A stretch of DNA of 64,000 nucleotides from positions 31,963-95,962 of the forward strand of contig NZ_JAAHHD010000019.1 of the NCBI RefSeq assembly GCF_010672205.1, read 5' to 3'. A program made the translations under genes and the position numbers. This DNA is from Moorena sp. SIO3A5. Lineage in GTDB: Bacteria > Cyanobacteriota > Cyanobacteriia > Cyanobacteriales > Coleofasciculaceae. Under the pieces are notes generated by a model. That model was not told the DNA's origin. It worked only from the letters and a program-made list of their open reading frames with translations, and did no database searches. Positions 21,966 through 46,838 of this stretch are shown piece by piece (position 1 is the stretch's first letter; each line of letters starts with the position of its first letter).

Positions 21966-22181
21966 CTAGTGGGAGCATTTTGCTCCCTTATTTTTTCCCG
22001 TAGAAGAAGCAAAGCTAGAGCTGGAACTTCTACTATAACTCCTGCCAGACTCTCTGGTCACAGTAACCTCTTGACTGGTGTTTACTTGATCACCAGATGC
22101 AAATGCCCTACTTTCGGCTTGGACTACTACCTTTCCATCTGGTGAAACTATCCATTTTCTGATTATCCCGGAGCGAATCAT
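21966..22181 (-). CDS. small conserved protein (paralog of 34432-34566) downstream of the parvulin-like gene
   Basis: N-terminal 44 aa, MIRSGIIRKWIVSPDGKVVVQAESRAFASGDQVNTSQEVTVTRE, is about 60% identical to the peptide at 34432-34566. The position relative to the PPIase-like gene is the same in both loci. Confidence 0.5.
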   Translation of the reverse strand: MIRSGIIRKWIVSPDGKVVVQAESRAFASGDQVNTSQEVTVTRESGRSYSRSSSSSFASSTGKNKGAKCSH

Positions 22182-22234
22182 AATTTAATGTCTCCATGGC
22201 TTTGTTGATTGAGGTTTACCTACTTTAAAGGGTA

Positions 22235-22345
22235 AGCTATCAGCTGAGAGCTGAGAGCTGAGAGCTGAGAGCTGAGAGCTGAGAGCTGATAGCTGAGAGC
22301 TGAGAGCTGAGAGCTGACGACTGATAGCTGACGACTGATAGCTGA
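22235..22345. repeat. heptamer tandem array (GCTGAGA/GCTGATA/GCTGACG)
   Basis: Read directly. Confidence 0.9.
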
Positions 22346-22378
22346 CTTACCCATTACCCATTACCCTAAATCATTCCA

Positions 22379-23161
22379 CTACTGACCCAACGCCTCCGCA
22401 GTTTGACTCTCAACCTTATCAACCATAGTGTCACTATGAAGCATATAGTTGAGTTCACGATTGAGCCAATCCTGAAACAGTCTATCCAATATCTCGTCGT
22501 ACCTTTCCGGTGTTAATTCAGCAGGGATAAACCTTTCTACCATCAAGATATGATAACCCTGAGGAGTTTTGACCGGATTGACCACTTGTCCAATAGGTAC
22601 ACCAAAGACAATCGCTGCTATATCTGGACGTAAATTCCAACGGTAAAGCTTCCCTTCAAAACCGCACTTCTGTCGGCGTTGCTCATCAATGTCATAGATA
22701 TGAGCGGCTTGATAAAAGCTAATTTCTTTTTCTTCAATTTGATAGAAGAGTTCTTTGGAAAGTTTCTCGTTAGCTACAATAATTTGATAGAGCAAGATTT
22801 GGTCAAAATCTAGTCGGTTTTGACCAAAAAACTTTTCCACGTCTTTATCAAATAGAGATTTGGATAACTTTTTAGCTAGCAATTGCTGGCGAATTCCGGC
22901 TTCCCAGTCATCGGAAGTAATCATATTATCGGCTAGCCAAGCTAGAGTGTCTGAAGCCTTCTCCAAGCGATTTTGGTGACGGAATTTATCTGCCTCTTCC
23001 TGAATTTCTTCGGCGGTGACGGTTAGGTTTCTTTCGACAGCAGCTCGATTAATGACTTTTTGATACAAAATTTTCTCAGAGACGTCTTTTAGCTGGATTT
23101 CTCGTTTCAGAAACTCAGTAATTTCCTGTGGTTCAAGGGATGCTCTAGAAAGAATAGTCAT
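22379..23161 (-). CDS. parvulin-type peptidyl-prolyl isomerase-like protein (SurA-like N-terminal region plus PpiC domain), no signal peptide
   Basis: PpiC-domain pattern AAHIY...GFEGKLYRW...PVKTPQGYHILMVE. It is 55% identical to the paralog at 34690-35448. Confidence 0.65.
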   Translation of the reverse strand: MTILSRASLEPQEITEFLKREIQLKDVSEKILYQKVINRAAVERNLTVTAEEIQEEADKFRHQNRLEKASDTLAWLADNMITSDDWEAGIRQQLLAKKLSKSLFDKDVEKFFGQNRLDFDQILLYQIIVANEKLSKELFYQIEEKEISFYQAAHIYDIDEQRRQKCGFEGKLYRWNLRPDIAAIVFGVPIGQVVNPVKTPQGYHILMVERFIPAELTPERYDEILDRLFQDWLNRELNYMLHSDTMVDKVESQTAEALGQ

Positions 23162-24150
23162 GCTTAGCTTTTCCTTGTTCAGATTTTAGCTGATCGGGTA
23201 ATGGGGCAATATATGGAGCAACGGATGAGTTAACAAATGTAAGGGATGGGGTGATTCCTAATACTTATCAATTTTATGCTTAAATTGCATCAGATACTGT
23301 GATGAAATTGGCATTAGTTAGGGTGGTTGCACCCTGTCCATCCACGGTTCCTTGGACTACAGCTAGAATATCGTTATTGAATTTCACCAAAGTGGCATCA
23401 GCAATGCCATTACCAGTGCTATCAAATACCTCTAGTTAAGCGATCGCTACTGCTTGAACTCCAGCGATTAGTCCATGAACTGCTATTTGTGCTATTTGTT
23501 CGTGAGTCGTTAGTTACTATCCTACTACGATCGTTACCATTGATAGTGAGGCTATTGTTTCTGATTATACTGGAAAAATTGTTTGAAAAATTGTTTGTAG
23601 TCGCAGTTGAACTAGTAGTTAAACTATGGTTCTGTTCGATGCTGTCTGTGATGGGCTTTGTCAACCTCTGTGTGAGACTCTTTCCGAGACTCTTTCTAAT
23701 CAGACTCACACGAGGAAGAATTGTCAATGTTCTGCTGAAATTAACCATGGCTATTAATCGGCTATCAGCCTTGTGTTACCCTTAAACTGCACCTGTTGAA
23801 CCTGGTTTGTGGAGTGTTAAGTGTTGAGTGTTGACCGTTAACTGTTTTACTGCCGCTCCTACACGCCTTATCTCTACCAAGCATCAAATATTAACTATCA
23901 ACAAAAATCCCTCCATTCCAAAACTATGCCAATGAGTTTAGGAAATTTAGGCTCAACCTAAAAAAGGAATGAAAATCTTTTCCCCTTCATTCCTAATTCA
24001 ATTTACTCCTCATTATCAAGTTAGGGGCTGGGTGGTAAACTATAGAAACTTTAGTTTCCGTCGCCCATCCCCTAGTCTCCCTTACCTATTACCGAAAATT
24101 ACCGAAAACCCTTATTGATTTATAGCCGGATTTACCAAAATCGGTATTAT

Positions 24151-24967: not shown

Positions 24968-25267
24968 TTAGTAGCCGACCGCAGCCACAGACAAAGAAAT
25001 TGAATCAGAGCTGTAATTAGTAGCTTTAGCGTCACTAAAGGTTTCACTAAGACTATTGTAACCATCGGCACTAGCAGTAGCTTCAGCAGTAGCCAGGTTG
25101 CCGCGAAGGCTCACATAAGAGTCAACATACTTGTCAATATCGATATATTCAGTGATATAAATGTCCTTAACATCATAGAAAGTTACACTACGGTATAGGT
25201 CTGAACCACCAACGATATTGGTTTCTTCGTTAACAACTTCGATGTGATTTAGGTCAGAAATATTCAT
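24968..25267 (-). CDS. double-glycine leader precursor protein P1 (leader MNISDLNHIEVVNEETNIVGG plus a 78-aa Tyr/Asp/Ser-rich core)
   Basis: The conserved N-terminal ISDLNH(L/I)E motif is shared with the precursors at 36869-38728, and a GG motif lies ~20 aa from the start. The gene is adjacent to PCAT/HlyD genes on the same strand. Confidence 0.6.
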   Translation of the reverse strand: MNISDLNHIEVVNEETNIVGGSDLYRSVTFYDVKDIYITEYIDIDKYVDSYVSLRGNLATAEATASADGYNSLSETFSDAKATNYSSDSISLSVAAVGY

Positions 25268-25289: not shown

Positions 25290-25750
25290 TTTTGTTTTAC
25301 TTAACAACTTGGTTGTTGTTAGTTTTATTCTACCGCTTCTTATTCAATTTGTCTCACTTGTCAAGCCAATTTGGCGGAAACTTTAATTAAATTAGTTAGG
25401 TAGCTAAAAACAACTTGGTTGTTGTTATTTTTATCCTACCGCTCTTAATTTAATTTGTCTCACTTGTCAAGCCAATTTGGCGGGAACTTTAGTTCGACCC
25501 TTGATTAAGTTAGGTAGGTAGCTAAGAACAACTTTGGTTTTTGTTGTTGTTATTTTCATCCTACCGCTCTTAGTTGAATTTGTCTCACTTGTCACGCCAA
25601 TTTGGCGGAAACTTTAGCTCGATCCTTGATTAAGTTAGGTAGGTAGCTAACAACAATGGTTTTGTTGTTGTTATTTTTAACCTACCGTTATTAATTTAAT
25701 TTGTCTCACTTGTCAAGCCAATTTGGCGGTAAAGTTTTAGGGAGAGTTTA
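25290..25750. promoter_or_regulatory. five tandem ~118-bp repeats upstream of P1. Each carries a TTGACA-like box and the inverted repeat GCCAATTTGGC preceded by TGTCTCACTTGTCAA
   Basis: Read directly. The same TGTCTC...GCCAATTTGGC motif recurs upstream of P7 (38815-38845) and, with one mismatch, upstream of P4 (37228-37250). Confidence 0.45.
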
Positions 25751-26470: not shown

Positions 26471-26878
26471 CTAGAAACACCTTATATTCCTAGTACTTGA
26501 GTATAATTTTGGCAATTTTTTGTTAAACCACTGTTCTTTAGAGCCCCCTTGAACTAGTTGGCTTCTGCTGTCAAGGGGCTTTGCATAGTCGAGATCTTTA
26601 ATGTTCCTTAAGCACTTCTGAGCATCTTCCCTATCCTGCTTAAGGCTGTCGGTTGTAGCTGGATTGAGTGAGTCCATTTTCTCGTTATCCCGTCGCAATC
26701 GGCAGTAGGTTCGCGACGGTATGTATTCTAAGGGGTTAAGACCCAAATAACGCAGCATCAAAACACAAGCCCAGGAATACTTGCGATCGCGAATTGCTTC
26801 TTCAATCAAACTAATCTTTTCAGGATCTAGGGTTTTGCCCAGTGGGCGATTAGAACGACGAAGCATGGAGTAACTCAT
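26471..26878 (-). CDS. HetP-like protein (paralog 1 of 3)
   Basis: The conserved core [34 protein letters not shown] recurs at 39849-40283 and 46524-46838. From memory it resembles the HetP N-terminal domain ([10 protein letters not shown]...[12 protein letters not shown]), and it sits downstream of a HetC-like PCAT as hetP does in Anabaena. Confidence 0.5.
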   Translation of the reverse strand: MSYSMLRRSNRPLGKTLDPEKISLIEEAIRDRKYSWACVLMLRYLGLNPLEYIPSRTYCRLRRDNEKMDSLNPATTDSLKQDREDAQKCLRNIKDLDYAKPLDSRSQLVQGGSKEQWFNKKLPKLYSSTRNIRCF

Positions 26879-27542: not shown

Positions 27543-29177
27543 CTATAGATTGACACCACCTTTTTGCAGCTGTCGGATCGGATCTAACAAGAAATCCACA
27601 ATCCGACGGCGGCGGATAATGATGTCAGCTTTGGCTGTCTGACCAGGTTTGAATCGGATCATTTGATCGTCTTCTGTAACGTAGTCACGGTTTAGGGAAA
27701 CTTCCACCTCATAAACCGAACCAAGTTGTTGATCAGTTTTGGCATCGGCAGAAAGGGAAGTGACTTTCCCTTTGATGATGCCGTATTCCTGATAGGGATA
27801 GGCATCAAGCTTGATTTGCACCGGCATTCCTTCTTTGATAAAGCCTGCCTCCTGATTAGGTAAACTAGCTGATAACACCAGGGGCGCATCTTGGGGCGCT
27901 ACTTCGGCAATGGTTTGACCGGGTTGAAAGACTTCACCAATATTGGCAACATTGAGGGAGGAAACTACTCCATCCACCGGTGCATAGAGAAACTTTTGTT
28001 TGAGCCTAGCTTTCGCACTAGTTAGCAGATTGCGGTTTTCAGCAATTTTGGCATTTAGTTGAGTCAGTTCGATCTCCAACTGCTGAAGTTTCTGCTTGGT
28101 CTCTAGCTGAGTCCGATGCACTTCCGCTTGCTTCTGAGTTAGACCTGCCTGAAGTCGTTGGATTTCTGCTAAGGTCTGGTTGAGATCGCTGTGAGTCAGA
28201 GTGATCGCGCTGTTGCGATCGCGTATACTCTGCTGGGCTTGATAAATCTGGTCTTGGTTACTGGCTGCTTCTTGCAGTTGGGTTTGGGTAATCACCCGCT
28301 GACTCGCTCGTAGGCTATGTTCTGCTTGAAATACTTGTTCTTTTGAGATTGCCCCTGATGCTAACAGGGGTTTGAGATTCTCTAGGCGTTCCTTAAGGGC
28401 AAATGCATCATCCTGTCGTTGCTGGAGCAGTGCTTGGGTAGTCGCCTTGAGCCGTTTTAGGCGTTCTAGTCTGTCCTGACTGGCGACGTTTGCCTGCTGA
28501 TGTTGGATCAGTTGTTCTCGTAAGGCGGCTACTTTAGTCTGTGCCTGAGCGATAGCGGCCTGTTGTGCGTCAATGTCCGCTTTGGCAATTTGCTGACGGG
28601 TTTGGGCTTCTTGGTGGATGTTTTCAATCAGCCCTTGCATCTGAATTAATTTGATTTGGTCAGCATTGATCAGTTGCTCCAAACGCTCTACTTCAGTAGC
28701 GCCAAGTTCTTTATCCAGTTCCACCAAGACTTGCCCAGCGGTAACCGATTCCCCTTCTTTGACCGCAATCTTGGCGACCTTGCCGGATTGGATCGGATGA
28801 ATTTTATACACTTCTCCTTTTGGCACTAACTTGCCTGTGGCTTTACCCACTTCGTCAATTTGGCCAAAGGTTGCCCAAACCCCACAGACCATACAGAAGG
28901 CGAATCCTCCCAAAAGCAGTCTCTGGGGCAGTACCGATGGTGGCTGATCCAGTAAATTTTGTAGGGCTGTTGACCAGTTTTCAGTGTTGGTAGCCCCTAG
29001 TGATGATGTTGGTGTGACCGGATTTTGAACATGATTAGCTGATTGGGGGAGTGGTGGTGCTGATACCGCTGTCCCCCCATAGATCGATCTAATCTCAGCT
29101 GAGGTTAGATTAGGGTGAGGGGTTTGTCCCTCAGGGAGTCCCTCTCTAGACGGGATAGATGGTTGTGGTTTGTTCAT
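27543..29177 (-). CDS. HlyD-family membrane-fusion/secretion adaptor protein
   Basis: N-terminal cytoplasmic tail, a single TM segment (LLLGGFAFCMVCGVWATFG), a long coiled-coil region, and the C-terminal beta domain typical of HlyD. Confidence 0.85.
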   Translation of the reverse strand: MNKPQPSIPSREGLPEGQTPHPNLTSAEIRSIYGGTAVSAPPLPQSANHVQNPVTPTSSLGATNTENWSTALQNLLDQPPSVLPQRLLLGGFAFCMVCGVWATFGQIDEVGKATGKLVPKGEVYKIHPIQSGKVAKIAVKEGESVTAGQVLVELDKELGATEVERLEQLINADQIKLIQMQGLIENIHQEAQTRQQIAKADIDAQQAAIAQAQTKVAALREQLIQHQQANVASQDRLERLKRLKATTQALLQQRQDDAFALKERLENLKPLLASGAISKEQVFQAEHSLRASQRVITQTQLQEAASNQDQIYQAQQSIRDRNSAITLTHSDLNQTLAEIQRLQAGLTQKQAEVHRTQLETKQKLQQLEIELTQLNAKIAENRNLLTSAKARLKQKFLYAPVDGVVSSLNVANIGEVFQPGQTIAEVAPQDAPLVLSASLPNQEAGFIKEGMPVQIKLDAYPYQEYGIIKGKVTSLSADAKTDQQLGSVYEVEVSLNRDYVTEDDQMIRFKPGQTAKADIIIRRRRIVDFLLDPIRQLQKGGVNL

Positions 29178-29347: not shown

Positions 29348-32300
29348 TTAAAGATCCAGCTGCTGCTGGGCTAGGTGGTAGTACAGACCTTTCTCAGCCA
29401 TGAGTTCGGAGTGGGTACCGCGCTCTGCGATCAGACCTTGGTCGAGGACCAGTATAGAGTCGGCATTGCGCACCGTAGAAAGACGGTGGGCAATGATGAA
29501 GGTAGTGCGATCGCGACTAATGCGAGCTAAATTTTGTTGAAAACGTCGCTCGGATTCTGTATCTAGGGAGCTAGTCGCTTCATCGAGAATCAGAATCTTG
29601 GGGTTACCCAGCAAGGCTCGGGCGATCGCAATCCGTTGCCGTTGTCCCCCAGACAGGTTAGACCCTCGCTCCCCAACCTTGGTGTTGTATCCCAGGGGCA
29701 GGTTTTGAATAAACACATGAGCTTCAGCCAATTTGGCAACTTCTACCCCTTGTTCGAGGCTATACTCAGGTTTGTATAAGGTGATGTTCTCTAAAATCGT
29801 CCCTGAAAACAAAAAGCATTCTTGAGGTACCACACCTAATTGAGAGCGCAAAGACTGGGGAGAAACATGTCGGATGTCGTGGCTATCAATCAAAATACGG
29901 CCTGTAGTTGGGTGATAGAGTCCTTGGAGCAGCTTGACCAAGGTACTTTTGCCCGAGCCACTGCGTCCGACAATGGCTATGGTCTTTCCAGGGGCAACCT
30001 CGAAGGAAATGTTTTGAAGGGTGTATTGTTCATCATCCTCACTATAGCGAAAGCTGACATTGTCAAACTGGACATGCCCCGCGATCGCAGGCAATGGCAT
30101 CAGGGGTTTTTGGGTATTCTCTTCTGGCTGGGTGGTCAAGACATCATCGAGCCGTTCCACCGATACCAAGATTTCCTGGAACTCATCCCAAAGTCCCACC
30201 AAAGACAAAATCGGGCTAATCACCCGACCAATGAGCATATTGAATGCCACAAATTGACCAATCGTGAGCTGTTCCTGAATTACCAGACTTGCCCCGAACC
30301 ACAGTAAAGCCGTGCCGCTGAGGTTATTAATCAACCCACTGACTGACCCTAAGCCGTTGGCCAAGTTCTGTCCTTTGAATACCATATTCAACTGACCCGT
30401 GAGGCGGTCTTCCCAGCGCCAGCGCACCTCTTGTTCAGAGGCTGCTGCTTTGACAGTTGCTACTCCCGACATCATTTCTACTAACAGGGAGTTTTGTGCT
30501 GCTGTTTCTTTAAAGATTTCCCTGGACACTTGGCGTAGAAATGGACTGGCAACTATGGTCAAAATCGCAATCGGTACAATCGTTGCCAGGACCAGCAAGG
30601 TTAGGTGCCAGTTGTAGTAGAGCATCAGCCCCACATAGACAAACATCATTACCACATCCAGCCAAGTAGCAATGGCTTGCTGAGTCAGGAACGCCTGAAT
30701 TTTCCCAGTTTCCTGGACTCGGGTCAGGATGTCCCCCACCTGGCGGGATTCAAAAAACTTCAGGGGTAGTGTGAGGGTATGCTTAATAAAACCACTGACA
30801 AAGGTAAGACTGAGTCGATTGGAAAAGTAATCCAGCAGGTAGCGTCTGGTGACACTCAAGCCTATGCTCCAAAGGCCAAAGATGACTAGACCAATTGCAA
30901 ACACATTGAGGGTAACAACACTTTTGTTAACCACCACCCGATCCAAAATGATTTGGGTAAACAGGGGGGTAATCAGACCAAAAACCTGGAGCAGTAGGGA
31001 AGCTAGGATAATTTGCAACAGGACTATGCGATGGGGCCATAGCAATCCCCAAAAGCGATTCAGAGAAATCTTTTGATTGGGAGTCCCTGCTAGCTGGGGA
31101 GTAGGATTCAACAGCAGCGCATATCCTGTCCAACCCTCTAGAAATTGTTGTCGAGAAAGCGTCCGCTTTCCCACAGCTGGATCCGCAACAAGTACCTTCT
31201 CCCCTTTGACCGAATAGACAACTATATAATGATCACCTTGCCAGTGAGCAATCCAGGGGTTACTCCGATCCGCTAGGCGAGCTAAAGACGCTCTAACTGG
31301 AGTAGCTTGAAATCCCAAGGTTTCTGATGCTCTGGCTAACCCTTTCAGGGATGACCCAGAACGCCCCACCCCTGCCAGATTCCGTAGGGAATTCAAGCTA
31401 AATCGTTTGCCCCAGTAGCGTCCAATCATTGCCAAGCAAGCAGCGCCACAATCTGAAGAGGATTGCTGTTCAATGAAGGGATAGCGTTGCCACAACCCCT
31501 GAATAAAAGGTCGCTTCGTCGGTACGGGAAATGGTATCAGTTTAGACTCAGCCTGGGTCGAGTTACTTTGTGTTTCAGCATTTCCATTGGTAGGGAGGTT
31601 GGATGGAATTAGCGGTACTCTGTGACCGGGCTGAGTACGGACTGGGTGGACTATGGCGCTAGTCGCCCCTGATTTCTGGTGTCCATTTTCAGAGGTTTGA
31701 CCCGTCTGTGGACTCAACTTTGCCAGCACCGGTGCCATCATTTGGGCAGTTTCCCAATGTTCCTTTGGTAGATGGGTTACCCATAAATCGCTTTGAGCAA
31801 TCCAATCTTCCGGCACTGGCTGAGGATAGCCCCAACTTTCGCCCCTTGCAATAGTTAGTGGGCAATTCTGTTGAACTCCGCCCCTTTCAATCTGACCACT
31901 ACGTAGCCAGTAACGACCAACTTGGCCAGACTTAACTAAGGACTCCCCAGCGGAAATCCGTGTGTCTACCAGGTAGGGCAACAATTGCTGTAGAGTGATG
32001 CTGTCAAGCGATCGCAATGCTGTTAAGGTCTTGAAGAAAATCAAGCGTTGCCGGTGCTGAGCTTGTTGCTGTAGGTGTTCGAGCCACTCCGGTAGCTGTT
32101 CTAACCAAGGTTGCAGTTCAGCTAAGGACATCCGAGCAATCTGTCCTGAACTCGCTGCGATCGCTTGGTAAGGATAAGATAGGTTGCACAACAGTTCCTC
32201 AGCCCCAAAGGTTGCCCCCTCTTCAAGAACCTGTACGGATACGTCCCGCTGTTTTTCACCATCAAAGCTTAGCAGCCGCACCCGCCCGCAACAGACCACG

Positions 32301-34315: not shown

Positions 34316-34431
34316 AGACAAGGTCAAAAACGGTAATTATTTTGTATAATTGATTTAGAAATGCTATAGGTAAACTACTTACTATAAGAAGCATAGCAAG
34401 AGGATGAACTTCTGCTATAAATTCTGCCACT

Positions 34432-37981: not shown

Positions 37982-38317
37982 TTAATGACGGCTGATTCCA
38001 GAGAAGCCAATACCTACGGACTTGGAACCAGTTACTCCACCTTGCTCAATAGTGATGAAGACGCTTTCTTGCTTAGTAGCAACGTTATTACCTGCATCGC
38101 TAGAACCTTCAGATGTAGTACCACCTGAAGCGGTAATACCATTAATGTCTACGCTAGAGGTAATGCTGGTATCGAAAACTTCAGTTTCGGTGATGGTGCT
38201 GGTGGTGTTGAAAACGCTGGTGACATTGTTGTTGAATGTGATTCCAGCAATAGTAGTACCACCTTGAACTTGGCTAGCCTCAACGGATTCTAGATGATTT
38301 AAGTCAGAAATAAGCAT
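37982..38317 (-). CDS. double-glycine leader precursor protein P6
   Basis: MLISDLNHLESVEASQVQGG leader; paralog of P5 and P7. Confidence 0.65.
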   Translation of the reverse strand: MLISDLNHLESVEASQVQGGTTIAGITFNNNVTSVFNTTSTITETEVFDTSITSSVDINGITASGGTTSEGSSDAGNNVATKQESVFITIEQGGVTGSKSVGIGFSGISRH

Positions 38318-38395
38318 TGATTTTCTCCTTGTTGGTTGTTGATGATGAATCGAGGTTTAGAAACTAATTAATCAGAAACTTTTCGTGATTAATTA

Positions 38396-38728
38396 CTAAC
38401 GGCTGATTCCAGAGAAGCCAAGACCTACAGACTTGGAACCAGTTACGCCACCTTGCTCAATAGTGATGAAGACGCTTTCTTGCTTAGTAGCAACGTTATT
38501 ACCTTGATCGCTAGAACCTTCAGATGTAGTACCACCTGAAGCGGTAATACCATTAATGTCTACGCTAGAAGTAATGCTGGTATTGAAAACTTCAGTTTCG
38601 GTGATGGTGCTGGTGGTGTTGAAAACGCTGGTGACATTGTTGTCGAATTGGATTCCAGCAATAGTAGTACCACCTTGAACTTGGCTAGCCTCAACGGATT
38701 CTAGATGGTTTAAGTCAGAAATAAGCAT
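38396..38728 (-). CDS. double-glycine leader precursor protein P7
   Basis: MLISDLNHLESVEASQVQGG leader; paralog of P5 and P6. Confidence 0.65.
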   Translation of the reverse strand: MLISDLNHLESVEASQVQGGTTIAGIQFDNNVTSVFNTTSTITETEVFNTSITSSVDINGITASGGTTSEGSSDQGNNVATKQESVFITIEQGGVTGSKSVGLGFSGISR

Positions 38729-38854
38729 TGATTTTCTCCTTCTTTGTTGTTGATTTTATTTCTGTGGAGCAGCTTTGTTTTAGCTGTTGATATAACTATA
38801 TCCATATTCCCCTAGGCATGTCTCGCCAATTTGGCTTCAAGCTTTTATTTTTTG

Positions 38855-39848: not shown

Positions 39849-40283
39849 TCACCACAGGGAAACCAAACAGTCTTGCCGTAAATAATCGGTTAACTTCTTG
39901 AGGATGGATTCCTCTTCTTCCAGTTCAGTGATTAAGCACTGTTCTTGATCGCCACCGTGGACCTGTGAAGTTTTCTTGCCAAGGGTCTCTACATAAGCCA
40001 GATCTTTGATCTGGCTCAAACGCTGCCGTGCATTCAAGACTTTATTGCTATTGGTCATCATACTAGCTTGCTTCTGTAAGATCATGTCCCGGTTTTGTTT
40101 GAGCAAGCGGCTGTAGGTTCTAGAAGGCATGTAGTCTAGGGGGTTATGGCCTGCCAAGCGTAGCATTAACACACAAGCCCAAGAATATTTGCCATCAAGG
40201 ATGGCTTCCTCGATCTCGCTAAACTTATCAATATCCATCATTTTGTCGAGCTTGGTATTGGCAGAAGGAATACGATAGGTCAT
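39849..40283 (-). CDS. HetP-like protein (paralog 2)
   Basis: [34 protein letters not shown] core. Same position downstream of HlyD/PCAT as paralog 1. Confidence 0.5.
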
Positions 40284-40455: not shown

Positions 40456-42057
40456 CTATAGATCGATGCCGCTTTTTTGCAGTTGTCGCATCGGATCCAA
40501 TAAGAAATCGATAATCCGACGGCGGCGGATGATGATGTCAGCATTGGCGGTTTGACCAGCCTTAAACCGGATGATTTCATCCTCTTCAATCACATAGTCA
40601 CGGTCGAGGGACACTTTCACCTTATAGACTGAACCCATTACTTGATCGGCTTTAGCATCGGAAGAGATGGAAATCACCGTGCCTTTGATGATGCCGTAAT
40701 CCTGATAGGGATAGGCATCAAATTTCACTTGCACCGCCATTCCTTCGTTAATAAACCCTGCCTCGCGAGTAGGCAAACTTGCGGATAGCACTAAGGGGGC
40801 ACCTTGAGGAGCGATTTCGGCGATGCTACGTCCCGGTTGCACGACTTCACCAGCATTACCAATGTTGAGGGAAGATATTATCCCATCCACTGGCGCTTTG
40901 AGAAACTTCTGTTTGAGCCTGGTTTTAGCAGTAGTAACCAGGGTTTCATTTTCAGAAATTCTAGCTTTGATTTGGGTCAGTTCCACTTCCAACTGTTGAA
41001 TTTTCTGCTGTGCTTCCAGGCGAGTGGTGCGTCCCGTTGCTTGCCGATGCTCTAATTCTGCCTCTAGTCGCTTAATTTCTGCTAAAGTTTGTTGTAGCTC
41101 ACCTCGGCTTTGGCTAGTCGCCGCTTCGCGATCGCGTATACTTTGCTGAGCTTGAAAGATCTGTTCGCGAGTACTCAAACCCTCTTGCAGTTTGCTTTCG
41201 GTAACAGCACTTTGGCTAGCACGAAAGCTTTGTTCTGCTTGAAATACCTGTTCTTTCGAGATTGCTCCTTCTGCCAACAGAGGCTTAAGGTTATCGAGTC
41301 GTTCCTTGAGAGCCACTACATTAGCCCGCCGTTGCTGGAGCAGTTCTTGGGCTGTCGCCTGCACCAGCTTCATCCGTTGTAATCGTTCGCGATTAGCAGC
41401 TTTAGCTAACTGATGTTGAATGATTTGTTGTCTAATTGCCGATGCACTAGCTTGTGCTCGTGCGATCGAAGCTTGTTGTGCTTGAACTTCTGCTTGGGTA
41501 ATCTGCTCACGAGTTTCTACTTCTAGACGGGTTCTTTCAAGCAGTCCTTGCATCTGAACTAACCTAATCCGGTCTGCATTAAGAACTTTCTCTAAACGTT
41601 CTACTTCCTGAGTGGCAAGCTCTGTATCCAGTTCCACCAAGACTTCCCCAGCTTTAACCGCTTGCCCTTCTTTGACCTTAATACTAGCAATCTTGCCTGG
41701 CTCAATCGGGTCAACTTTATAAACGTCGCCTTTTGGCACTAAGCTTCCATGAGCTTTACCGACTTCATCAATCTGCCCAAACGTTGCCCAAGCCACAAAT
41801 ATCGTACAGAAGCTTAATCCACCCAACATCAAGAGCCGGGGAAGGTTCGCCGGAGGCTGGTCGAGGGTAGTTTGTATCGAGGTTGACCATTTGGACGTAC
41901 TAGGAGCATTGGCAGTATTGCTTCCTACCTCTGTGCTGGGTGAGCCTGGCTCTTGGTCATAATCAGGTCTCAGGCGACCTGATGGCATTAAAACGACGTT
42001 ACCCTGACGACTCGTAGCCGCCTCAGGTGGGGAGTTGATTGGTTTTGCTTGTGTCAT
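40456..42057 (-). CDS. HlyD-family secretion adaptor protein (paralog 2)
   Basis: About 70% identical to 27543-29177 over the TM, coiled-coil and beta domains. Confidence 0.85.
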   Translation of the reverse strand: MTQAKPINSPPEAATSRQGNVVLMPSGRLRPDYDQEPGSPSTEVGSNTANAPSTSKWSTSIQTTLDQPPANLPRLLMLGGLSFCTIFVAWATFGQIDEVGKAHGSLVPKGDVYKVDPIEPGKIASIKVKEGQAVKAGEVLVELDTELATQEVERLEKVLNADRIRLVQMQGLLERTRLEVETREQITQAEVQAQQASIARAQASASAIRQQIIQHQLAKAANRERLQRMKLVQATAQELLQQRRANVVALKERLDNLKPLLAEGAISKEQVFQAEQSFRASQSAVTESKLQEGLSTREQIFQAQQSIRDREAATSQSRGELQQTLAEIKRLEAELEHRQATGRTTRLEAQQKIQQLEVELTQIKARISENETLVTTAKTRLKQKFLKAPVDGIISSLNIGNAGEVVQPGRSIAEIAPQGAPLVLSASLPTREAGFINEGMAVQVKFDAYPYQDYGIIKGTVISISSDAKADQVMGSVYKVKVSLDRDYVIEEDEIIRFKAGQTANADIIIRRRRIIDFLLDPMRQLQKSGIDL

Positions 42058-42559: not shown

Positions 42560-42860
42560 ATTTCATCTGAGTATGTTGCTAAATTGGCAGATTTTTGGCA
42601 GCTTTTTACAAAGCTTGACATAGTGATAGCTAGCTTCAAATTTCATTAATTATTAGTCATTAGTCATTAGTCCTTTTCACATGACTGTGTTGCCAAATTG
42701 GCAAATTTTTACATAGTTTGATATAGTCATAGGTAGCTTCAAATTTTCTTAGTCATTAGTCCTTTGTGACTAACCAGGGTCTATGGGGATTTACAAATGA
42801 CTAATGACTAAATAACTAATAACTAATAACTAATGACTAATGAGCACTTGTTAACGATCT
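42560..42860. repeat. two ~100-bp tandem repeats plus ttagtcattagtcatt / aactaat heptamer arrays in an ~800-bp spacer between HlyD-2 and PCAT-2
   Basis: Read directly. The equivalent spacer in locus 1 is only ~170 bp. Confidence 0.75.
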
Positions 42861-42861: not shown

Positions 42862-45800
42862 TTAAAGATCTAGCTGCTGCTGTGCTAGATGATAGTAAAG
42901 ACCTTGACGATCCATGAGTTCCTGATGGTTGCCTTTCTCGACCAGAACACCTCGGTCTAGGACAAGGATGCAGTCAGCATTGCGCACTGTAGAGAGGCGG
43001 TGGGCGATGATGAAGGTAGTGCGATCGCGACTAATGCGAGCTAAGTTTTGTTGAAAGCGGCGCTCGGATTCTGTATCTAGGGAGCTAGTCGCTTCATCCA
43101 GAATCAGAATCTTGGGGTTGCCCAATAGGGCTCGGGCTATGGCAATCCTTTGTCGCTGTCCACCAGAAAGGGTAGAGCCTCGCTCTCCTACTTTTGTATT
43201 ATATCCCAAAGTCATACCTTGAATAAAAGCATGAGCTTCTGCTAGTTTGGCTACCTCTACGGCTTCATCCAGGCTGAAATCCGGTCGGTAGAGAGTGATA
43301 TTTTCGACAATTGTCCCCGAGAACAAGAAACATTCTTGGGGTACCACACCCATTTGAGAACGCAAAGATTGGGGGGAAATATGGCGGATATCGTGTCCAT
43401 CTATCAAAATACGACCATTAGTCGGATGATAGAGACCTTGCAGTAGCTTCACCAAGGTACTCTTGCCAGAGCCACTGCGCCCCACTAGAGCAATGGTTTC
43501 TCCAGCCCTAATCTGTAGGGAAATATTCTGTAGGATATTGCGATCCTCATCCTCGGAGTATCGGAAGGTAACATCTTCCAATATTACATCACCCTTAATC
43601 TCAGGTAGAACCAACATTGGTTCTTGAGGATTCTCCTCTGGCTTAGCAGATAAGACATCATTAAGCCGTTCTACAGACACCAAGATTTCTTGAAACTCAT
43701 CCCAAAGATTCACTAGAGCCAAAATCGGACCAGTGACTCGGCCAATGAGCATATTAAACGCGACATACTGACCGATAGTAAGCTGCTCATTAATTACTAA
43801 GCTAGCGCCAAACCAAAGCAAAGCGGTGCTGCTGAGAGTATTAATTAGAGAACTAATTGACCCTAACCCGTTAGCCAGGTTTCTACCTTTAAATTGTACA
43901 TTCAACTGATTGGTGAGGCGATCTTCCCAGCGCCAGCGCACTTCTTGTTCCGAAGCCGCCGTTTTCACAGTAGCAACCCCTGACATCATTTCCACTAACA
44001 TAGAATTTTGTTGGGCTGCTTCTTTAAAGATTTCCCTGGACACCTGGCGTAGAAAGGGACTGGCAATCACAGTCAAGATGGCGATGGGGAAAATCGTTGC
44101 CAGCACCAGCAAGGTTAAGCGCCAATTGTAGTAGAGCATTAGTCCAATATAGACAAACACCATCACCACATCTAGCCAAGTCGCAATCGCTTGCTGAGTT
44201 ATAAAACCCTGAATTTTTCCAGTTTCCTGAATTCGGGTCAGGATATCCCCCACCTGGCGGGATTCAAAAAACTTCAGGGGTAAGGTCAGGGTATGGTTAA
44301 TGAAGCCACTGACGAAGGTGAGACTAAGCCGATTGGAAAAGTAGTCCAGCAAGTAGCGTCTGGTGAGACTAACCCCAATCGTCCAAAGGCCAAAGATGAT
44401 TAGACCAATGGAGAAGACATTGAGAGTGACAAGGCTTCTGTTAATAATCACCCGGTCAAGAATGATCTGGGTAAATAAGGGAGTAATCAGACCAAAAACC
44501 TGAAGGATGAGGGTAGCCAAGATAATTTGCAGCAGGACTGAGCGATGGGGCCATAGCAATCCCCAAAACGGCCCTAAAGAACGTTTGTCGCTGGGAGTAA
44601 TTGCTAGTTGGGGAGTTGGATCCAATAGCATGGCATACCCAGTCCAACTTTGGAGAAAGTCTTTGCGAGCAAGCGATCGCTTCCCCACTGCTGGATCGGC
44701 AACGAGTACCTTATTACCCTTTACCTGGTAGACAACAATATAGTGATCTCCTTGCCAGTGAGCAATCCAAGGATTACTCCGATCCGCTAAGCGACCTAAA
44801 GAAGCCCTGACTGGACTAGCTTGAAACCCTAAACTTTCCGCTGCTTTAGCTAAACCTTTGAGGGATGAACCAGAACGACCCACTCCCGCCAGTTCCCGCA
44901 GGGAGTTGAGAGCAAAGCGTTTGCCCCAATACTGCCCAATCATGGCTAAGCAGGCAGCACCACAATCAGAAGAAGCTTGCTGCTCAATAAAAGGATAGCG
45001 CTGCCAAAACCTTAGGAATCTCCCACCCGGCTTTGCTGGTTTGGGAAAATCAAAGCTTTCTGACTGACTGGGTTCAAGGGGCGTTTGTTGCTTAGGAGTT
45101 TCTAAAACTCGCCGAGTCGGTCGTGCTCTAGTCTGGTTTGCATGTGGTGACGGAGTATGGGTCTTGTTAACTACGCCTTGATCCGATGGAGATTTACCGT
45201 CACCATTTTTAGCACTTTGCCTGTTCTCCTGATCCGGTGACTCGGTGGAGTTAGCCAAAACTGGTGCGATCGCGCAAGCCGCTTGCCAATGCTCTTGAGG
45301 CAGCTGGTAAAGCAATACATCAGTTTGGGCAATCCAATCTGTGGGTACTGGCATCGGATATCCCCAACTTTCTCCGATGCTAGGAAATGGAGCAGAGGAA
45401 TTTGCCTCTGTTCCTTCTGGCGTTCCCATTTGACCACTACGTAGCCAGCAATGACCAGCTTGGGAAGAGGACACCAGAGACTCCCCAGCCTCAATGCGTG
45501 TTTCTACGATGTAGGGCAACAGTTGATTTATGGTAACACCGTTAAGCGATCGCAAATTGGTCAAAGTCTTGAAGAAAATTAGGCATTGCCGGTGCTGGGC
45601 TTGTTTCCCCAGGATTTCCGACCACTTTGGCAACCGTTCCAACCAAGGCAAGAGTTGATTTAGGGAAATACGAGCAACTTGTCCTGAACTCGCTGCGATC
45701 GCTCTGTAAGGATAGGATAGACTACCTAAGAGATCATAGGCACCAAAAGTTTCCCCTTCTTCGAGTACCTGTATGGAAACCTCCCGCTGTTTTTCAGCAT

Positions 45801-46089
45801 CAAAGCCTAGTAGTCGTACCCGACCCTGACAAACTAGGTAAAGATATTGGTGATCTTGTTCAATCTCAACAGAATCTTGGGATAGCTCTGGTTTAGTATA
45901 GGCAAGGATTTTATCCCCTAGCTGGAAGTGATCAAGGTCAAATGATTGACTAAATTCGTAGTTGAGCTTTGGATCGACTGAGTCTAGGGTCAAGCTTTGA
46001 AGCACCACTGATAAATTGCTAGCAGGGTCTGGGTTGATAGAAGACGGTGGTTTACTAGGCTCTGCTGAATCCCTGATTATATTCTTCAT
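42862..46089 (-). CDS. HetC-like PCAT with N-terminal cNMP-binding-like domains (paralog 2)
   Basis: C39 motif SSDCGAACLAMIGQYWGKRF; GRSGSGKST / LSGGQRQR ABC motifs; about 75% identical to 29348-32560 over the C39-TMD-NBD region. Confidence 0.85.
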   Translation of the reverse strand: MKNIIRDSAEPSKPPSSINPDPASNLSVVLQSLTLDSVDPKLNYEFSQSFDLDHFQLGDKILAYTKPELSQDSVEIEQDHQYLYLVCQGRVRLLGFDAEKQREVSIQVLEEGETFGAYDLLGSLSYPYRAIAASSGQVARISLNQLLPWLERLPKWSEILGKQAQHRQCLIFFKTLTNLRSLNGVTINQLLPYIVETRIEAGESLVSSSQAGHCWLRSGQMGTPEGTEANSSAPFPSIGESWGYPMPVPTDWIAQTDVLLYQLPQEHWQAACAIAPVLANSTESPDQENRQSAKNGDGKSPSDQGVVNKTHTPSPHANQTRARPTRRVLETPKQQTPLEPSQSESFDFPKPAKPGGRFLRFWQRYPFIEQQASSDCGAACLAMIGQYWGKRFALNSLRELAGVGRSGSSLKGLAKAAESLGFQASPVRASLGRLADRSNPWIAHWQGDHYIVVYQVKGNKVLVADPAVGKRSLARKDFLQSWTGYAMLLDPTPQLAITPSDKRSLGPFWGLLWPHRSVLLQIILATLILQVFGLITPLFTQIILDRVIINRSLVTLNVFSIGLIIFGLWTIGVSLTRRYLLDYFSNRLSLTFVSGFINHTLTLPLKFFESRQVGDILTRIQETGKIQGFITQQAIATWLDVVMVFVYIGLMLYYNWRLTLLVLATIFPIAILTVIASPFLRQVSREIFKEAAQQNSMLVEMMSGVATVKTAASEQEVRWRWEDRLTNQLNVQFKGRNLANGLGSISSLINTLSSTALLWFGASLVINEQLTIGQYVAFNMLIGRVTGPILALVNLWDEFQEILVSVERLNDVLSAKPEENPQEPMLVLPEIKGDVILEDVTFRYSEDEDRNILQNISLQIRAGETIALVGRSGSGKSTLVKLLQGLYHPTNGRILIDGHDIRHISPQSLRSQMGVVPQECFLFSGTIVENITLYRPDFSLDEAVEVAKLAEAHAFIQGMTLGYNTKVGERGSTLSGGQRQRIAIARALLGNPKILILDEATSSLDTESERRFQQNLARISRDRTTFIIAHRLSTVRNADCILVLDRGVLVEKGNHQELMDRQGLYYHLAQQQLDL

Positions 46090-46523
46090 ATGTTAAACAT
46101 TGAAAATTGATTTTTAACAATTAACCATTTACAATTAACCATTTATAATGAACTACATTTATTTATCTAATAACTTAGTTTTTGTCAAGTCATTAACCGG
46201 CTAGTTACCAATAATTCACAAAAAATTCACAAATACTTTAAGTAAACTTCATCGAAACTTTAAATTCCCCCTAGAGCATCTGGTGTAAAGTAAACCCATA
46301 AGGGTTGGGGAAAGGGAGATAGGAGGTCAAGTCATCAGCCAGCTCATCAAGCCAATAGATGTCAGCTAGATCTAAGCAGATAGTGCGGTTGATGCGAGTG
46401 CAGTTCAACAGATTAAACGGGAAGACGTTGAAAACTAGGCTCTGCATCAATAATCAATCAAACTGACCTAGGCAGGTGGTTAACTTCAGACTTGATGAAT
46501 CTCCCAACTTTCCCTAACCCTGA

Positions 46524-46838
46524 CTAGACCTTACTAACAACCTGTGATTGTGAGACAGGGGTTTTGCCAACTGGATGCTTACCAGATTGACTATTTTCTT
46601 TGATTAAGCGATTGTAGGTTCGGTAAGGGATGTAATGGAGGGGGTTGTAACCAGAAAAACGCAGAACTAACACACAAGCCCAAGAATACTTGCCCGCGAT
46701 GATAGCTTCTACGACCTGGTTAAGCTGCTCATTATTCATGACTTGTTCAGAGCTCGTAGAGGTTGACGTTGGTTGAGATGTTCTACTAGTTGATGGTCTA
46801 CTAGTTATTGAGAGTAATTTTTTGGCCATGGTAGTCAC
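46524..46838 (-). CDS. HetP-like protein (paralog 3) with an N-terminal Ser/Thr-rich extension
   Basis: [41 protein letters not shown] is a match to my recollection of the HetP N-terminal domain. It is located just upstream of PCAT-2. Confidence 0.55.

What the first reader, a model, noticed from the sequence alone, without database searches (positions are those of the whole stretch)
21966..46838. Two paralogous, same-strand export loci (HetC-like cNMP-PCAT + HlyD + HetP-like + GG-leader cargo proteins + parvulin-like protein + conserved 44-aa peptide) forming a candidate undescribed secretion/signalling system
All genes from 46838 down to 34432 and from 32560 down to 21966 are on the minus strand, and both stretches repeat the same gene order. 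That order is a PCAT (two cNMP-binding-like domains, C39 peptidase with catalytic Cys, ABC TMD and NBD), then HlyD, then a HetP-like small protein. Next come one or more small proteins carrying a 20-aa double-glycine leader, a cytoplasmic parvulin-type PPIase-like protein, and a conserved ~44-aa peptide. The hetC-hetP linkage is known from Anabaena heterocyst development, but there the cargo of HetC is not established. Here the exporter is physically linked to a family of obvious C39 substrates. It is also linked to two extra conserved components (the PPIase-like protein and the small peptide) that are not part of canonical bacteriocin/PCAT loci. Duplication of the whole module, not just the precursors, argues that the components function together.
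Basis: partly seen in the sequence, partly recalled or inferred. Interest (0 to 1): 0.88.

Follow-up and report, generated by a model that had tools for sequence, protein, structure and literature searches.

The report
Duplicated HetC/HetP-type peptide export locus
Two neighbouring copies of a cyanobacterial protein-export gene cluster are really there and are conserved across many cyanobacteria, but this type of cluster was described from genome mining in 2011, so it is a well-populated example of a known kind and not a new system.

Summary
The window is Moorena producens 3L. It holds two minus-strand paralogous modules, 47-73% identical at protein level. Each encodes a cNMP-C39-ABC exporter (PCAT), HlyD, a HetP-family protein, double-glycine (GG) leader proteins, a cytoplasmic parvulin-like protein and a small conserved protein.

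The gene order recurs across cyanobacteria, with and without heterocysts. Of 38 related loci with enough flank, 29 hold PCAT, HlyD and HetP. So the components do form one system.

'Undescribed' is not supported. Wang et al. 2011 and Micallef et al. 2015 define these as group I/II 'bacteriocin' clusters: a long CAP_ED-C39 transporter, HlyD, a SurA/rotamase protein and HetP-type precursors carrying KIxDLxYLEx10GG. HetC and PteB/EbfG are studied relatives.

- HetP_A and HetP_B themselves carry an internal GG site nearly identical to that of Anabaena HetP.
- The parvulin-like family lacks a catalytic histidine, and four of the six cargo cores have no proline, which suggests a chaperone.
- The '44-aa peptide' is a truncated member of a 60-80 aa all-beta family found only in these clusters.
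- An 11-nt palindrome, GCCAAATTGGC, marks the cluster promoters in many genera. I found no report of it.

Verdict: new member of a known kind, moderate interest.

The parts
46524..46838 (-). HetP_U: HetP-family protein upstream of PCAT_A, with no GG tail
   Evidence: NF037966 at 118.7 bits against a cutoff of 45. No internal GG motif is present.
42862..46089 (-). PCAT_A: cNMP-like domain(s) + C39 peptidase + ABC TMD + NBD, a HetC homologue
   Evidence: Pfam domains. TIGR01193 at 528 bits against a cutoff of 523.85. 51% identical over full length to Trichormus/Anabaena HetC.
42578..42702 (.). Palindrome copies in the 805-nt PCAT_A-HlyD_A spacer: exact at 42692-42702, one mismatch at 42578-42588. 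Candidate hlyD promoter/operator.
40456..42057 (-). HlyD_A: type I secretion membrane-fusion protein
   Evidence: TIGR01843 at 249.9 bits against a cutoff of 208.65.
39849..40283 (-). HetP_A: HetP domain + linker + internal [20 protein letters not shown] site + 33-aa tail
   Evidence: NF037966 at 93 bits. The motif matches alr2818 SKIKDLAYLEVVGKQTTEIHGG. AF2 gives residues about 20-70 of the HetP domain pLDDT about 90 or more.
38825..38835 (-). GCCAAATTGGC palindrome, 107 nt from its first base to the cargo A1 ATG, followed by GAGACA-N18-TATAGT
37445..38728 (-). Cargo A1-A3 (38396-38728, 37982-38317, 37445-37777): three 110/111-aa GG-leader proteins, with A2 and A3 91-95% identical to A1
   Evidence: Cores are 90-91 aa, pI 4.1-4.8, with 0 Pro and 0 Cys.
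36869..37156 (-). Cargo A4, GG leader MIISDLNHLETIAEDPKVVGG. A one-mismatch palindrome lies at 37242-37252.
36276..36563 (-). Cargo A5, GG leader MKIAQLEYFELQATDHPILGG
35695..35991 (-). 98-aa ORF of unknown role, seen only in Moorena loci, with no GG leader
34690..35448 (-). PPIase_A: cytoplasmic PrsA/NifM-like parvulin-fold protein with a degenerate catalytic site. A one-mismatch palindrome lies at 35556-35566.
   Evidence: Pfam Rotamase at 44 bits. PDB sequence matches to HP0175, PrsA and Par10. The Par10 H8 equivalent is Gln. Palindrome.
34375..34566 (-). small_A: all-beta small protein, truncated to 44 aa by a stop at 34432-34434. The Ser-rich tail is still readable after the stop.
29348..32560 (-). 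PCAT_B. An exact palindrome lies inside its 3' part at 29727-29737.
27543..29177 (-). HlyD_B
   Evidence: TIGR01843 at 256.9 bits.
26471..26878 (-). HetP_B: HetP domain + internal IKDLDYAKPLDSRSQLVQGG site + 23-aa basic tail
25303..25737 (-). About four tandem ~120-nt promoter-like units, each with GCCAAATTGGC immediately followed by TTGACA or GTGACA, upstream of cargo B1
24968..25267 (-). Cargo B1, GG leader MNISDLNHIEVVNEETNIVGG
23422..23748 (-). 108-aa low-complexity ORF of uncertain reality, conserved only in Moorena B loci
22379..23161 (-). PPIase_B
21966..22181 (-). small_B: full-length (71 aa) member of the small all-beta, Ser-tailed family
   Evidence: AF2 pLDDT 84.

Best explanation
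Each locus is a cyanobacterial 'group I-type' type-1 secretion module of the HetC/PteB kind.

Export (inferred from family knowledge). The PCAT recognises N-terminal MxISDLNHLE...GG leaders with its cytoplasmic C39 domain and cuts after GG. It then exports the 74-91 aa acidic, Thr/Ser/Gly-rich cores through a HlyD adaptor and an outer-membrane channel encoded elsewhere.

Gating (inferred). The N-terminal cNMP-like domain(s) gate export in response to a small nucleotide. For HetC this ligand is ppGpp in vitro.

Chaperone (inferred). The cytoplasmic PrsA/NifM-like parvulin-fold protein lacks the first catalytic histidine, and most of its clients have no proline. It most likely acts as a dedicated holdase or adaptor that keeps cargo export-competent, not as an isomerase.

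HetP-type protein (inferred). It is itself a substrate. Cleavage at its internal GG site would release the conserved N-terminal HetP domain in the cell and export a short tail.

Regulation (inferred). Transcription of the cargo, hlyD and PPIase genes runs from promoters that share the palindrome GCCAAATTGGC centred near -41, which implies one dedicated regulator.

Cargo function (inferred). The cargo more likely builds extracellular matrix or sheath, as EbfG does, than kills competitors.

Shown here: domain content, paralogy, conserved synteny, the motifs, and the cis-element. Everything about cleavage, export, chaperoning and regulation is inferred.
For: - Domains pass curated cut-offs.
- Synteny PCAT-HlyD-HetP-(GG ORFs)-PPIase holds in 29 of 38 loci with at least 8 kb of flank. 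GG ORFs occur in 45 of 63 loci.
- The literature defines this cluster class (PMC3140520; PMC4558948).
- HetC has C39 protease activity, needs its ATPase and cNMP domain, and binds ppGpp. Its substrate is unknown (PMC10986499).
- PteB-dependent secretion of the GG proteins EbfG1-4 is needed for biofilm (PMC4997328).
- PCAT_A and PCAT_B are 51-52% identical to HetC over full length.
- The internal GG motif is present in at least 27 of 46 HetP-like ORF fragments by regex, and more carry variant forms. D94/L95 and the GG are conserved among database homologues. Canonical HetP has the motif.
- Calothrix anomala locus L014 holds PCAT-HlyD-HetP(GG)-PPIase with no other GG ORF. The regex also finds no separate cargo in L020, L025 and L040.
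- PPIase family: none of the 46 aligned N-termini looks like a signal peptide (no hydrophobic stretch, judged by eye). The Par10 H8 equivalent is Q/R/K in all 46. The H84 equivalent is His in only 32 of 46.
- Cargo cores have 0-2 Pro and 0 Cys, with pI 4.1-6.9, four of the six at 4.1-4.8.
- Palindrome: 88 exact copies in 1.11 Mb against about 0.5 expected. 27 copies start 96-109 nt upstream of cargo ATGs. A TAnnnT hexamer is enriched 22-24 nt downstream.
Against: - No experiment on this organism exists, and no outer-membrane factor is encoded in the window.
- A profile built from cargo leaders scores the HetP internal motif only weakly. The best independent E-value is 3e-3 and most are above 0.1. 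The similarity therefore rests on the pattern and its position.
- Some HetP-like genes lack the motif: Oscillatoria princeps-type loci, Nostoc spongiaeforme and HetP_U.
- Dual-histidine substitutions do not always abolish parvulin activity. This is general knowledge of Pin1 mutants, so isomerase activity is not excluded.
- Cargo function is a guess. Cargo A1 has almost no relatives.
- Consensus promoter and terminator scans were not above chance.
Confidence: 0.72

Rival explanations
1. Classical bacteriocin/microcin production. The GG-leader proteins are unmodified class II-like antimicrobials used against competitors, and the small conserved protein serves as immunity.
For: - The clusters were originally filed as bacteriocin clusters (PMC3140520).
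- GG leaders plus PCAT plus HlyD is the colicin V/microcin layout (family knowledge).
- Cargo cores are hypervariable between genera behind a conserved leader. Cargo A1 has almost no relatives. Both fit arms-race evolution.
Against: - The small protein has no hydrophobic segment. It is predicted to be a soluble four-strand beta meander, unlike membrane immunity proteins.
- Cores are 74-91 aa, acidic, Cys-free and Thr/Ser-rich.
- The only tested cyanobacterial relatives act in biofilm formation or development, not in killing.
- Calothrix-type loci have no cargo other than HetP.
Confidence: 0.15
2. A RiPP-like pathway. The small Ser/Cys-rich-tailed protein is the precursor, with a conserved N-terminal 'leader' and a Ser-rich core. 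The parvulin-like protein is its recognition or maturation partner.
For: - The best NCBIfam hit of both PPIase-like proteins is TIGR04500, 'putative peptide maturation system protein', although far below its cutoff (45-57 bits against 180).
- The small protein sits just downstream of the PPIase-like gene in 19 of 62 loci, and somewhere in the locus in 25 of 62.
- In some Nostocales the cluster lies next to M16 peptidases, radical SAM/SPASM genes and Nif11-like genes.
Against: - No modifying enzyme lies in either Moorena locus or elsewhere in the window.
- The small protein has no GG leader.
- Its Ser-rich tail is lost through a stop codon in locus A of this strain.
- AF2 predicts the whole chain, tail included, as one folded beta sheet.
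Confidence: 0.06
3. A developmental signalling system homologous in function to HetC-HetP. It would export a peptide that controls differentiation of specialised cells (hormogonia, necridia) in a non-heterocystous filament.
For: - HetC and HetP are required for heterocyst commitment.
- PCAT_A and PCAT_B are 51-52% identical to HetC, and HetP_A shares HetP's GG site.
- All 63 related loci come from cyanobacteria, most of them filamentous.
Against: - Clusters also occur in Xenococcaceae, Pleurocapsales and Chroococcidiopsis. Wang et al. list group I clusters in unicellular Synechococcus and Prochlorococcus.
- The canonical hetC-hetP locus has lost HlyD, the PPIase, the cargo and the palindrome, and carries HetR-type control instead. 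The developmental role therefore looks derived.
Confidence: 0.07

Closest known systems
Group I/II cyanobacterial 'bacteriocin' gene clusters (Wang, Fewer & Sivonen 2011; Micallef et al. 2015)
   Same: A long-type transporter with a CAP_ED (cNMP) domain, C39 and ABC, plus HlyD, a SurA/rotamase protein, GG-leader precursors, and a HetP-type precursor with KIxDLxYLEx10GG.
   Different: - No M16 peptidase is present, which is the group II hallmark. The loci are therefore group I-like, yet they carry many precursors (five in locus A).
- Two complete modules sit in tandem.
- The small all-beta protein and the GCCAAATTGGC element did not turn up in targeted term searches of those papers or in the sections read.
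HetC-HetP(-PatC) of Anabaena/Nostoc PCC 7120
   Same: The PCAT has the same architecture and is 51-52% identical. The HetP domain matches, and the internal GG site is nearly identical (IKDLAY.E..GK.T...HGG).
   Different: - The canonical locus has no HlyD, no rotamase, no N-terminal GG cargo called and no palindrome within 10 kb.
- It is under HetR/heterocyst control.
- Moorena forms no heterocysts (general knowledge).
PteB-EbfG1-4 of Synechococcus elongatus PCC 7942
   Same: A C39 PCAT with adjacent HlyD and an array of small GG-motif proteins. Their secretion needs the catalytic Cys. The cargo builds biofilm matrix rather than acting as an antibiotic.
   Different: - No HetP-type or parvulin-like partner is reported in the passages read.
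- The cargo sequences are unrelated.
- I did not check whether PteB carries the cNMP domain.
CvaAB/colicin V, ComAB and PCAT1-type double-glycine exporters
   Same: A C39 Cys/His peptidase fused to an ABC exporter. The leader is cut after GG and export is coupled to the cut. In Gram-negatives a HlyD-type adaptor is present.
   Different: These lack the N-terminal cNMP-like regulatory domain(s), a dedicated cytoplasmic parvulin-like partner and a HetP-type internal-site substrate.
PrsA / NifM / SurA parvulin foldases
   Same: An N-terminal helical chaperone-like region followed by a parvulin fold. Sequence matches include HP0175, PrsA, Par10 and weakly NifM.
   Different: - The protein is cytoplasmic (no signal-peptide-like N-terminus).
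- The first catalytic His is replaced in every member.
- It is tied to a PCAT cluster.

Membership tests
PCAT (peptide cleavage/export ABC transporter, TIGR01193) | C39 peptidase domain with catalytic Cys and His | tested here: met
   PF03412 E 4.5e-41 and 6.5e-41. SSDCGAAC and DHYIVV...ADP motifs are present in both proteins.
PCAT (peptide cleavage/export ABC transporter, TIGR01193) | ABC transmembrane domain plus ATP-binding cassette, and a whole-protein score above the curated cutoff | tested here: met
   PF00664 and PF00005 pass in both. TIGR01193 gives PCAT_A 528.4 bits against a cutoff of 523.85. PCAT_B scores 506.1, just below the cutoff.
PCAT (peptide cleavage/export ABC transporter, TIGR01193) | Cleaves GG leaders and exports the cargo | not testable with these tools
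   Needs biochemistry or secretome data.
HetC-type long PCAT | N-terminal cyclic-nucleotide-binding-like domain ahead of C39 | tested here: met
   PF00027 E 1e-10 at residues about 79-150 in both. Full-length 51-52% identity to HetC.
   Pfam E 0.08 and 0.2 over profile positions 3-86. hhalign of domain 1 against domain 2 gives probability 68%, E 4.7e-5.
HetC-type long PCAT | Required for heterocyst differentiation | not testable with these tools
The organism forms no heterocysts (general knowledge).
HetP family (NF037966 / PF28069) | Conserved ~60-aa HetP domain (GKYSWACVL...NPL.Y.P.RTY.RL) above the curated cutoff | tested here: met
   118.7, 93.3 and 74.0 bits against a cutoff of 45.
HetP-type precursor (Wang et al. 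2011) | Internal KIxDLxYLEx10GG motif after the HetP domain | tested here: met
   HetP_A has [20 protein letters not shown] and HetP_B has IKDLDYAKPLDSRSQLVQGG. HetP_U lacks the motif.
Type I secretion HlyD adaptor (TIGR01843) | Score above the curated cutoff | tested here: met
   249.9 and 256.9 bits against a cutoff of 208.65.
Type I secretion system | TolC-like outer-membrane factor | not tested
   None is encoded in the 64-kb window. The rest of the genome was not available.
Parvulin-type PPIase | Rotamase fold by profile | tested here: met
   PF00639 at 44.3 and 41.4 bits against a cutoff of 21.7.
Parvulin-type PPIase | Catalytic dual-histidine motif (Par10 H8 and H84) | tested here: not met
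   The H8 equivalent is Gln126 here and Q/R/K in all 46 family members. The H84 equivalent is His in 32 of 46.
Wang group II cluster | M16 peptidase genes in the cluster | tested here: not met
   No M16 domain was found among the 20 flanking ORFs of at least 100 aa that were scanned. Relatives in Scytonema, Nostoc carneum and Calothrix CCY0018 do have them.
Wang group I cluster | Long CAP_ED-C39 transporter + HlyD + SurA/rotamase | tested here: met
TIGR04500 PpiC-related peptide maturation protein | Score above the curated cutoff | tested here: not met
   44.6 and 57.0 bits against a cutoff of 180.

The most novel reading that the evidence does not exclude
The HetP-type protein is both the physiological substrate and the feedback regulator of the exporter. 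C39 cleavage at its internal GG site frees the DNA-binding HetP domain. That domain then acts, directly or with a sigma factor, on the cluster-specific GCCAAATTGGC operator at about -41 of the cargo, hlyD and PPIase promoters, so secretion activity is coupled to transcription.

On this reading the heterocyst commitment pair HetC-HetP is a stripped-down, HetR-rewired descendant of this ancestral module. That would identify HetP as the long-sought HetC substrate.
Probability: 0.15. Interest if true: 0.8.

Novelty: new member of a known kind. Interest (0 to 1): 0.42.

Why it matters
The substrate of HetC, which is needed for heterocyst commitment, is still reported as unknown (Rachedi et al. 2024). 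These loci and their relatives show the full ancestral context of the HetC-HetP pair: exporter, adaptor, a HetP protein with an internal GG site, ordinary GG cargo, a dedicated non-catalytic parvulin-like partner and a shared operator.

The minimal four-gene form in Calothrix, where HetP is the only GG protein, makes 'HetP is cut by HetC' directly testable.

The conserved palindrome gives a handle on how these widespread clusters are switched on. The clusters occur in most cyanobacteria and their function is almost entirely unknown.

As a finding, though, the cluster type is already in the literature.

Tried and rejected
- Sigma-70 promoter and terminator consensus scans over 33.5-47.5 kb gave 21 promoter-like sites against 25 expected and 21 terminator-like sites against 12 expected. 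This was not informative.
- Rfam and tRNA scans found nothing in the loci. The only hit is a tRNA-Ser at 56594.
- Pfam and NCBIfam found no family for any cargo, for the small protein, or for the 98-aa and 108-aa ORFs.
- A profile of 89 cargo leaders against the HetP internal motifs gave individually weak scores. I therefore claim pattern and position, not homology.
- The RiPP reading was rejected for lack of modifying enzymes.
- Recent duplication was rejected. DNA identity is only 68-79% in the coding cores, and the A and B copies do not group as sisters in a PPIase tree.
- I looked for the palindrome in the canonical hetC-hetP locus and it is absent.
- A literature search for the palindrome returned only unrelated papers.
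That point rests on its citation in PMC13342950.

Full report
**What is there**

Exact protein look-ups place the window in Moorena producens 3L. Every gene in the region is already annotated in NCBI, as peptide cleavage/export ABC transporter, HetP family protein, peptidylprolyl isomerase or hypothetical protein.

Locus A, in gene order:

| Feature | Coordinates |
|---|---|
| HetP_U | 46524-46838 |
| PCAT_A | 42862-46089 |
| HlyD_A | 40456-42057 |
| HetP_A | 39849-40283 |
| Cargo A1 | 38396-38728 |
| Cargo A2 | 37982-38317 |
| Cargo A3 | 37445-37777 |
| Cargo A4 | 36869-37156 |
| Cargo A5 | 36276-36563 |
| 98-aa ORF | 35695-35991 |
| PPIase_A | 34690-35448 |
| small_A | 34432-34566 |

Locus B, in gene order:

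| Feature | Coordinates |
|---|---|
| PCAT_B | 29348-32560 |
| HlyD_B | 27543-29177 |
| HetP_B | 26471-26878 |
| Cargo B1 | 24968-25267 |
| 108-aa ORF | 23422-23748 |
| PPIase_B | 22379-23161 |
| small_B | 21966-22181 |

Curated profiles confirm cNMP_binding, Peptidase_C39, ABC_membrane and ABC_tran in both exporters. They also confirm TIGR01843 HlyD, NF037966 HetP family in three proteins, and Pfam Rotamase.

Protein identity between locus A and locus B is 73% for the PCAT, 62% for HlyD, 47% for HetP, 60% for the PPIase-like protein and 68% for the small protein. The two PPIase copies do not group as sisters in a neighbour-joining tree of 46 relatives. The duplication is therefore old. A scan of the whole window found no further GG-leader ORFs or gene remnants.

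**Corrections to the observation**

- *The second cNMP domain is uncertain.* Only one cNMP domain passes Pfam. The second region reaches E 0.08-0.2 but covers the whole profile. It matches the first-domain profile at 68% probability, E 4.7e-5. A degenerate second domain is plausible but not proven.
- *The 44-aa peptide is a truncation.* In this strain the reading frame continues after a stop codon as SGRIYSRSSSSCYASYSK. Relatives are 60-80 aa with a Ser-rich tail.
- *The HetP-like proteins carry a GG site.* After the HetP domain, HetP_A has [20 protein letters not shown] and HetP_B has IKDLDYAKPLDSRSQLVQGG. A tail of 33 or 23 residues follows.

**Is it a system?**

A scan of one genome per species with the PPIase-like protein returned 63 loci. 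They come from Moorena, Oscillatoria, Planktothrix, Lyngbya, Leptolyngbyaceae, Phormidesmis, Xenococcaceae, Pleurocapsales, Chroococcidiopsis, Calothrix, Tolypothrix, Fortiea and Nostoc.

Among 38 loci with at least 8 kb upstream of the PPIase gene:
- 29 hold PCAT, HlyD and HetP;
- 2 hold part of the set;
- 7 hold none of the three within reach;
- 30 have at least one GG-leader ORF.

The cargo leader is strongly conserved (MIISDLNYLE...GG), while the cores differ between genera. The components belong together, and they do not track heterocyst formation.

**It is already described**

Wang, Fewer and Sivonen (2011) sorted 145 cyanobacterial clusters into seven groups. Groups I, II and VI have the long transporter with an extra N-terminal CAP_ED domain, HlyD and a rotamase ('SurA') protein. 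HetP-like proteins were reported next to these clusters with the motif KIxDLxYLEx10GG. M16 peptidases mark group II (PMC3140520).

Micallef et al. (2015) repeated the scheme and found one HetP-type precursor in a group I cluster in every Subsection V genome (PMC4558948).

The window has no M16 peptidase among the flanking ORFs scanned. Both loci are therefore group I-type clusters with a HetP-type precursor.

Experimental relatives exist:
- HetC has C39 protease activity. It needs its ATPase and its cNMP domain, and it binds ppGpp in vitro. Its substrate is unknown (PMC10986499).
- PteB-dependent secretion of the GG proteins EbfG1-4 is required for biofilm formation in Synechococcus elongatus (PMC4997328).

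**Link to HetC-HetP**

Wang's Figure S1 shows that Anabaena HetP (alr2818) itself carries SKIKDLAYLEVVGKQTTEIHGG.

I retrieved the canonical hetC-hetP locus from a Trichormus/Anabaena-type genome. Findings from that locus:
- HetC is 51-52% identical to PCAT_A and PCAT_B over the full length.
- HetP has the same internal site as HetP_A.
- No HlyD, rotamase or N-terminal GG cargo lies within 10 kb.

In Calothrix anomala (L014) the cluster is PCAT-HlyD-HetP(GG)-PPIase with no other GG ORF. The regex likewise finds no separate cargo in L020, L025 and L040. In such loci the HetP-type protein is the only candidate substrate.

Rachedi et al. state that no GG-leader gene lies near hetC, and they ask whether HetP-derived peptides are exported. 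The idea that HetP is the substrate is therefore old in silico but untested.

A caveat applies. A profile of 89 cargo leaders scores the HetP motif only weakly. The case rests on pattern, fixed position and conservation.

**The parvulin-like protein**

None of the 46 aligned N-termini looks like a signal peptide. This was judged by eye from the absence of a hydrophobic stretch. Sequence matches to solved structures are HP0175, PrsA and Par10.

The residue aligned with Par10 His8 is Gln here and Q/R/K in all 46 members. The His84 equivalent is His in only 32 of 46. Cargo A1-A3 and B1 cores contain no proline, and A4 and A5 contain two each.

A dedicated cytoplasmic holdase or adaptor, in the manner of NifM or PrsA, fits better than an isomerase. 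This is inference.

**The small protein**

- A profile search found 147 relatives. All are cyanobacterial where a source names the organism, all named ones are 'hypothetical', and none has a Pfam domain.
- All six neighbourhoods I examined hold a rotamase gene, and five of them also hold a PCAT and HlyD. The five are in Scytonema, Planktothrix, Phormidium ETS-05, Calothrix CCY0018 and Microcoleus (a degraded copy there). The Nostoc carneum locus shows only the rotamase gene. Three of the six also have an M16 peptidase pair.
- Among the 62 PPIase loci with downstream flank, 25 contain it and 19 have it directly downstream.
- AlphaFold with 60 sequences gives pLDDT 84 and four long antiparallel strands.

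Its role is unknown. It is not universal, and it is truncated in locus A of this strain.

**The cargo**

Cores are 74-91 aa and Cys-free, and most are Thr/Ser/Gly-rich. Core pI is 4.1-4.8 for A1-A3 and B1, 5.4 for A5 and 6.9 for A4.

Cargo A1 has only four representatives at E of 1e-3 or better among 1.84 billion proteins. Two of them are about 1000-aa Big_9/cadherin-like repeat proteins that match weakly.

This favours extracellular structural or adhesive proteins over antibiotics. It remains a guess.

**A shared cis-element (new here)**

Tandem repeats upstream of cargo B1 led to the 11-nt near-palindrome GCCAAATTGGC. The window has 21 matches at up to one mismatch against 1.5 expected, and all but one lie inside the two loci.

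Across the window and 66 loci there are 88 exact GCCAA[AT]TTGGC copies in 1.11 Mb against about 0.5 expected, spread over 40 of 67 sources. Their positions are:
- 27 start 96-109 nt upstream of a cargo ATG, in six genera;
- 14 precede hlyD;
- 2 precede hetP-like genes;
- 2 precede the PCAT.

A TAnnnT hexamer is enriched 22-24 nt downstream of the element. This puts the centre of the palindrome near -41, overlapping a weak -35. That is the geometry of an activator-dependent promoter.

In eight of the thirteen cargo promoters inspected, an ACAAC...GTTGT-type inverted repeat follows the -10.

The element is absent from the canonical hetC-hetP locus. There, hetP has a HetR-type site instead. I found no paper with this motif in the searchable library.

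The binder is unknown. HetP is cited as a non-specific DNA-binding protein that aids sigma-HetZ (PMC13342950). The HetP_A model gave no significant fold match.

**Verdict**

The claim that these genes form a functional system is supported. The claim that the system is undescribed is not.

The loci are good, complete examples of a known cluster class whose function remains largely unknown. The value added here is:
- the tie to the open question of the HetC substrate;
- the evidence that the parvulin-like partner is non-catalytic;
- the definition of the small protein family;
- the cluster-specific operator.

Noticed in passing
window 25303-25737, 38825-38835, 42692-42702, 29727-29737; one-mismatch copies at 35556, 37242, 39001, 39167, 42578; also L004, L006, L014, L023, L028, L029, L039, L046, L049 and others: The near-palindrome GCCAA[AT]TTGGC is confined to these clusters. 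There are 88 exact copies in 1.11 Mb against about 0.5 expected. It typically starts 96-109 nt upstream of cargo ATGs, with a TAnnnT hexamer 22-24 nt downstream of its end. It was not found in the literature library, and its binding protein is unknown.
   Followed up: yes
window about 38760-38790 and 25300-25330; L006, L023, L028, L039 cargo 5' regions: An ACAAC...GTTGT-type inverted repeat starts about 6-8 nt after the putative -10 of cargo promoters in several genera. The stem is conserved in sequence and does not covary. It could be a 5'-terminal mRNA hairpin or a second operator.
   Followed up: partly
window 22242-22345, 26390-26445, 25915-25958, 26018-26062, 42796-42843, 39329-39370: Short tandem heptamer and octamer repeats (AGCTGAG, TAGCTGA, TGACTTC, AGCACTC, AATGACT, TGGGGAGA) fill several intergenic spacers of both loci. 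They create spurious ORFs such as 22220-22354.
   Followed up: no
window 24761-24925: Two copies of an 88-nt unit lie just downstream of cargo B1, each with a GGGGAAGC...GCTTCCCC inverted repeat. They may be a terminator or a small mobile element.
   Followed up: no
window 38883-39212: Two ~164-nt direct repeats upstream of cargo A1 each carry a degenerate palindrome (GCCAAAGTGGC) and a TTCATA-N17-TATAAT promoter-like site. They look like duplicated promoter units without a coding part.
   Followed up: partly
window 6682-10893 (+): A 1403-aa protein has an N-terminal TPS (two-partner secretion) domain and a C-terminal CHAT protease domain.
   Followed up: no
window 2565-4022 (+): A 485-aa ORF has a Cas12f1-like TNB domain and is probably a TnpB-type transposon-associated nuclease. 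A recombinase fragment lies at 51827-52192.
   Followed up: no
L006 and L036 (Oscillatoria sp. PCC 10802, contig NZ_KB235950.1): A second genus also has two such modules side by side, about 17 kb apart. Tandem pairs are therefore not unique to Moorena.
   Followed up: partly
L073/L074 (canonical hetC-hetP locus): The 1030-nt hetC-hetP spacer holds a HetR-type site (GCGAGGGGTCTAACCCCTCAT) and TCCGGA but no palindrome. No HlyD or rotamase gene lies within 10 kb.
   Followed up: yes
L064 (Nostoc carneum NIES-2107), L066 (Scytonema HK-05), L072 (Calothrix CCY0018): In Nostocales the small protein lies in clusters that also hold a pair of M16 peptidases and a TetR regulator. In L064 a radical SAM/SPASM gene and Nif11-like genes are also present.
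   Followed up: no
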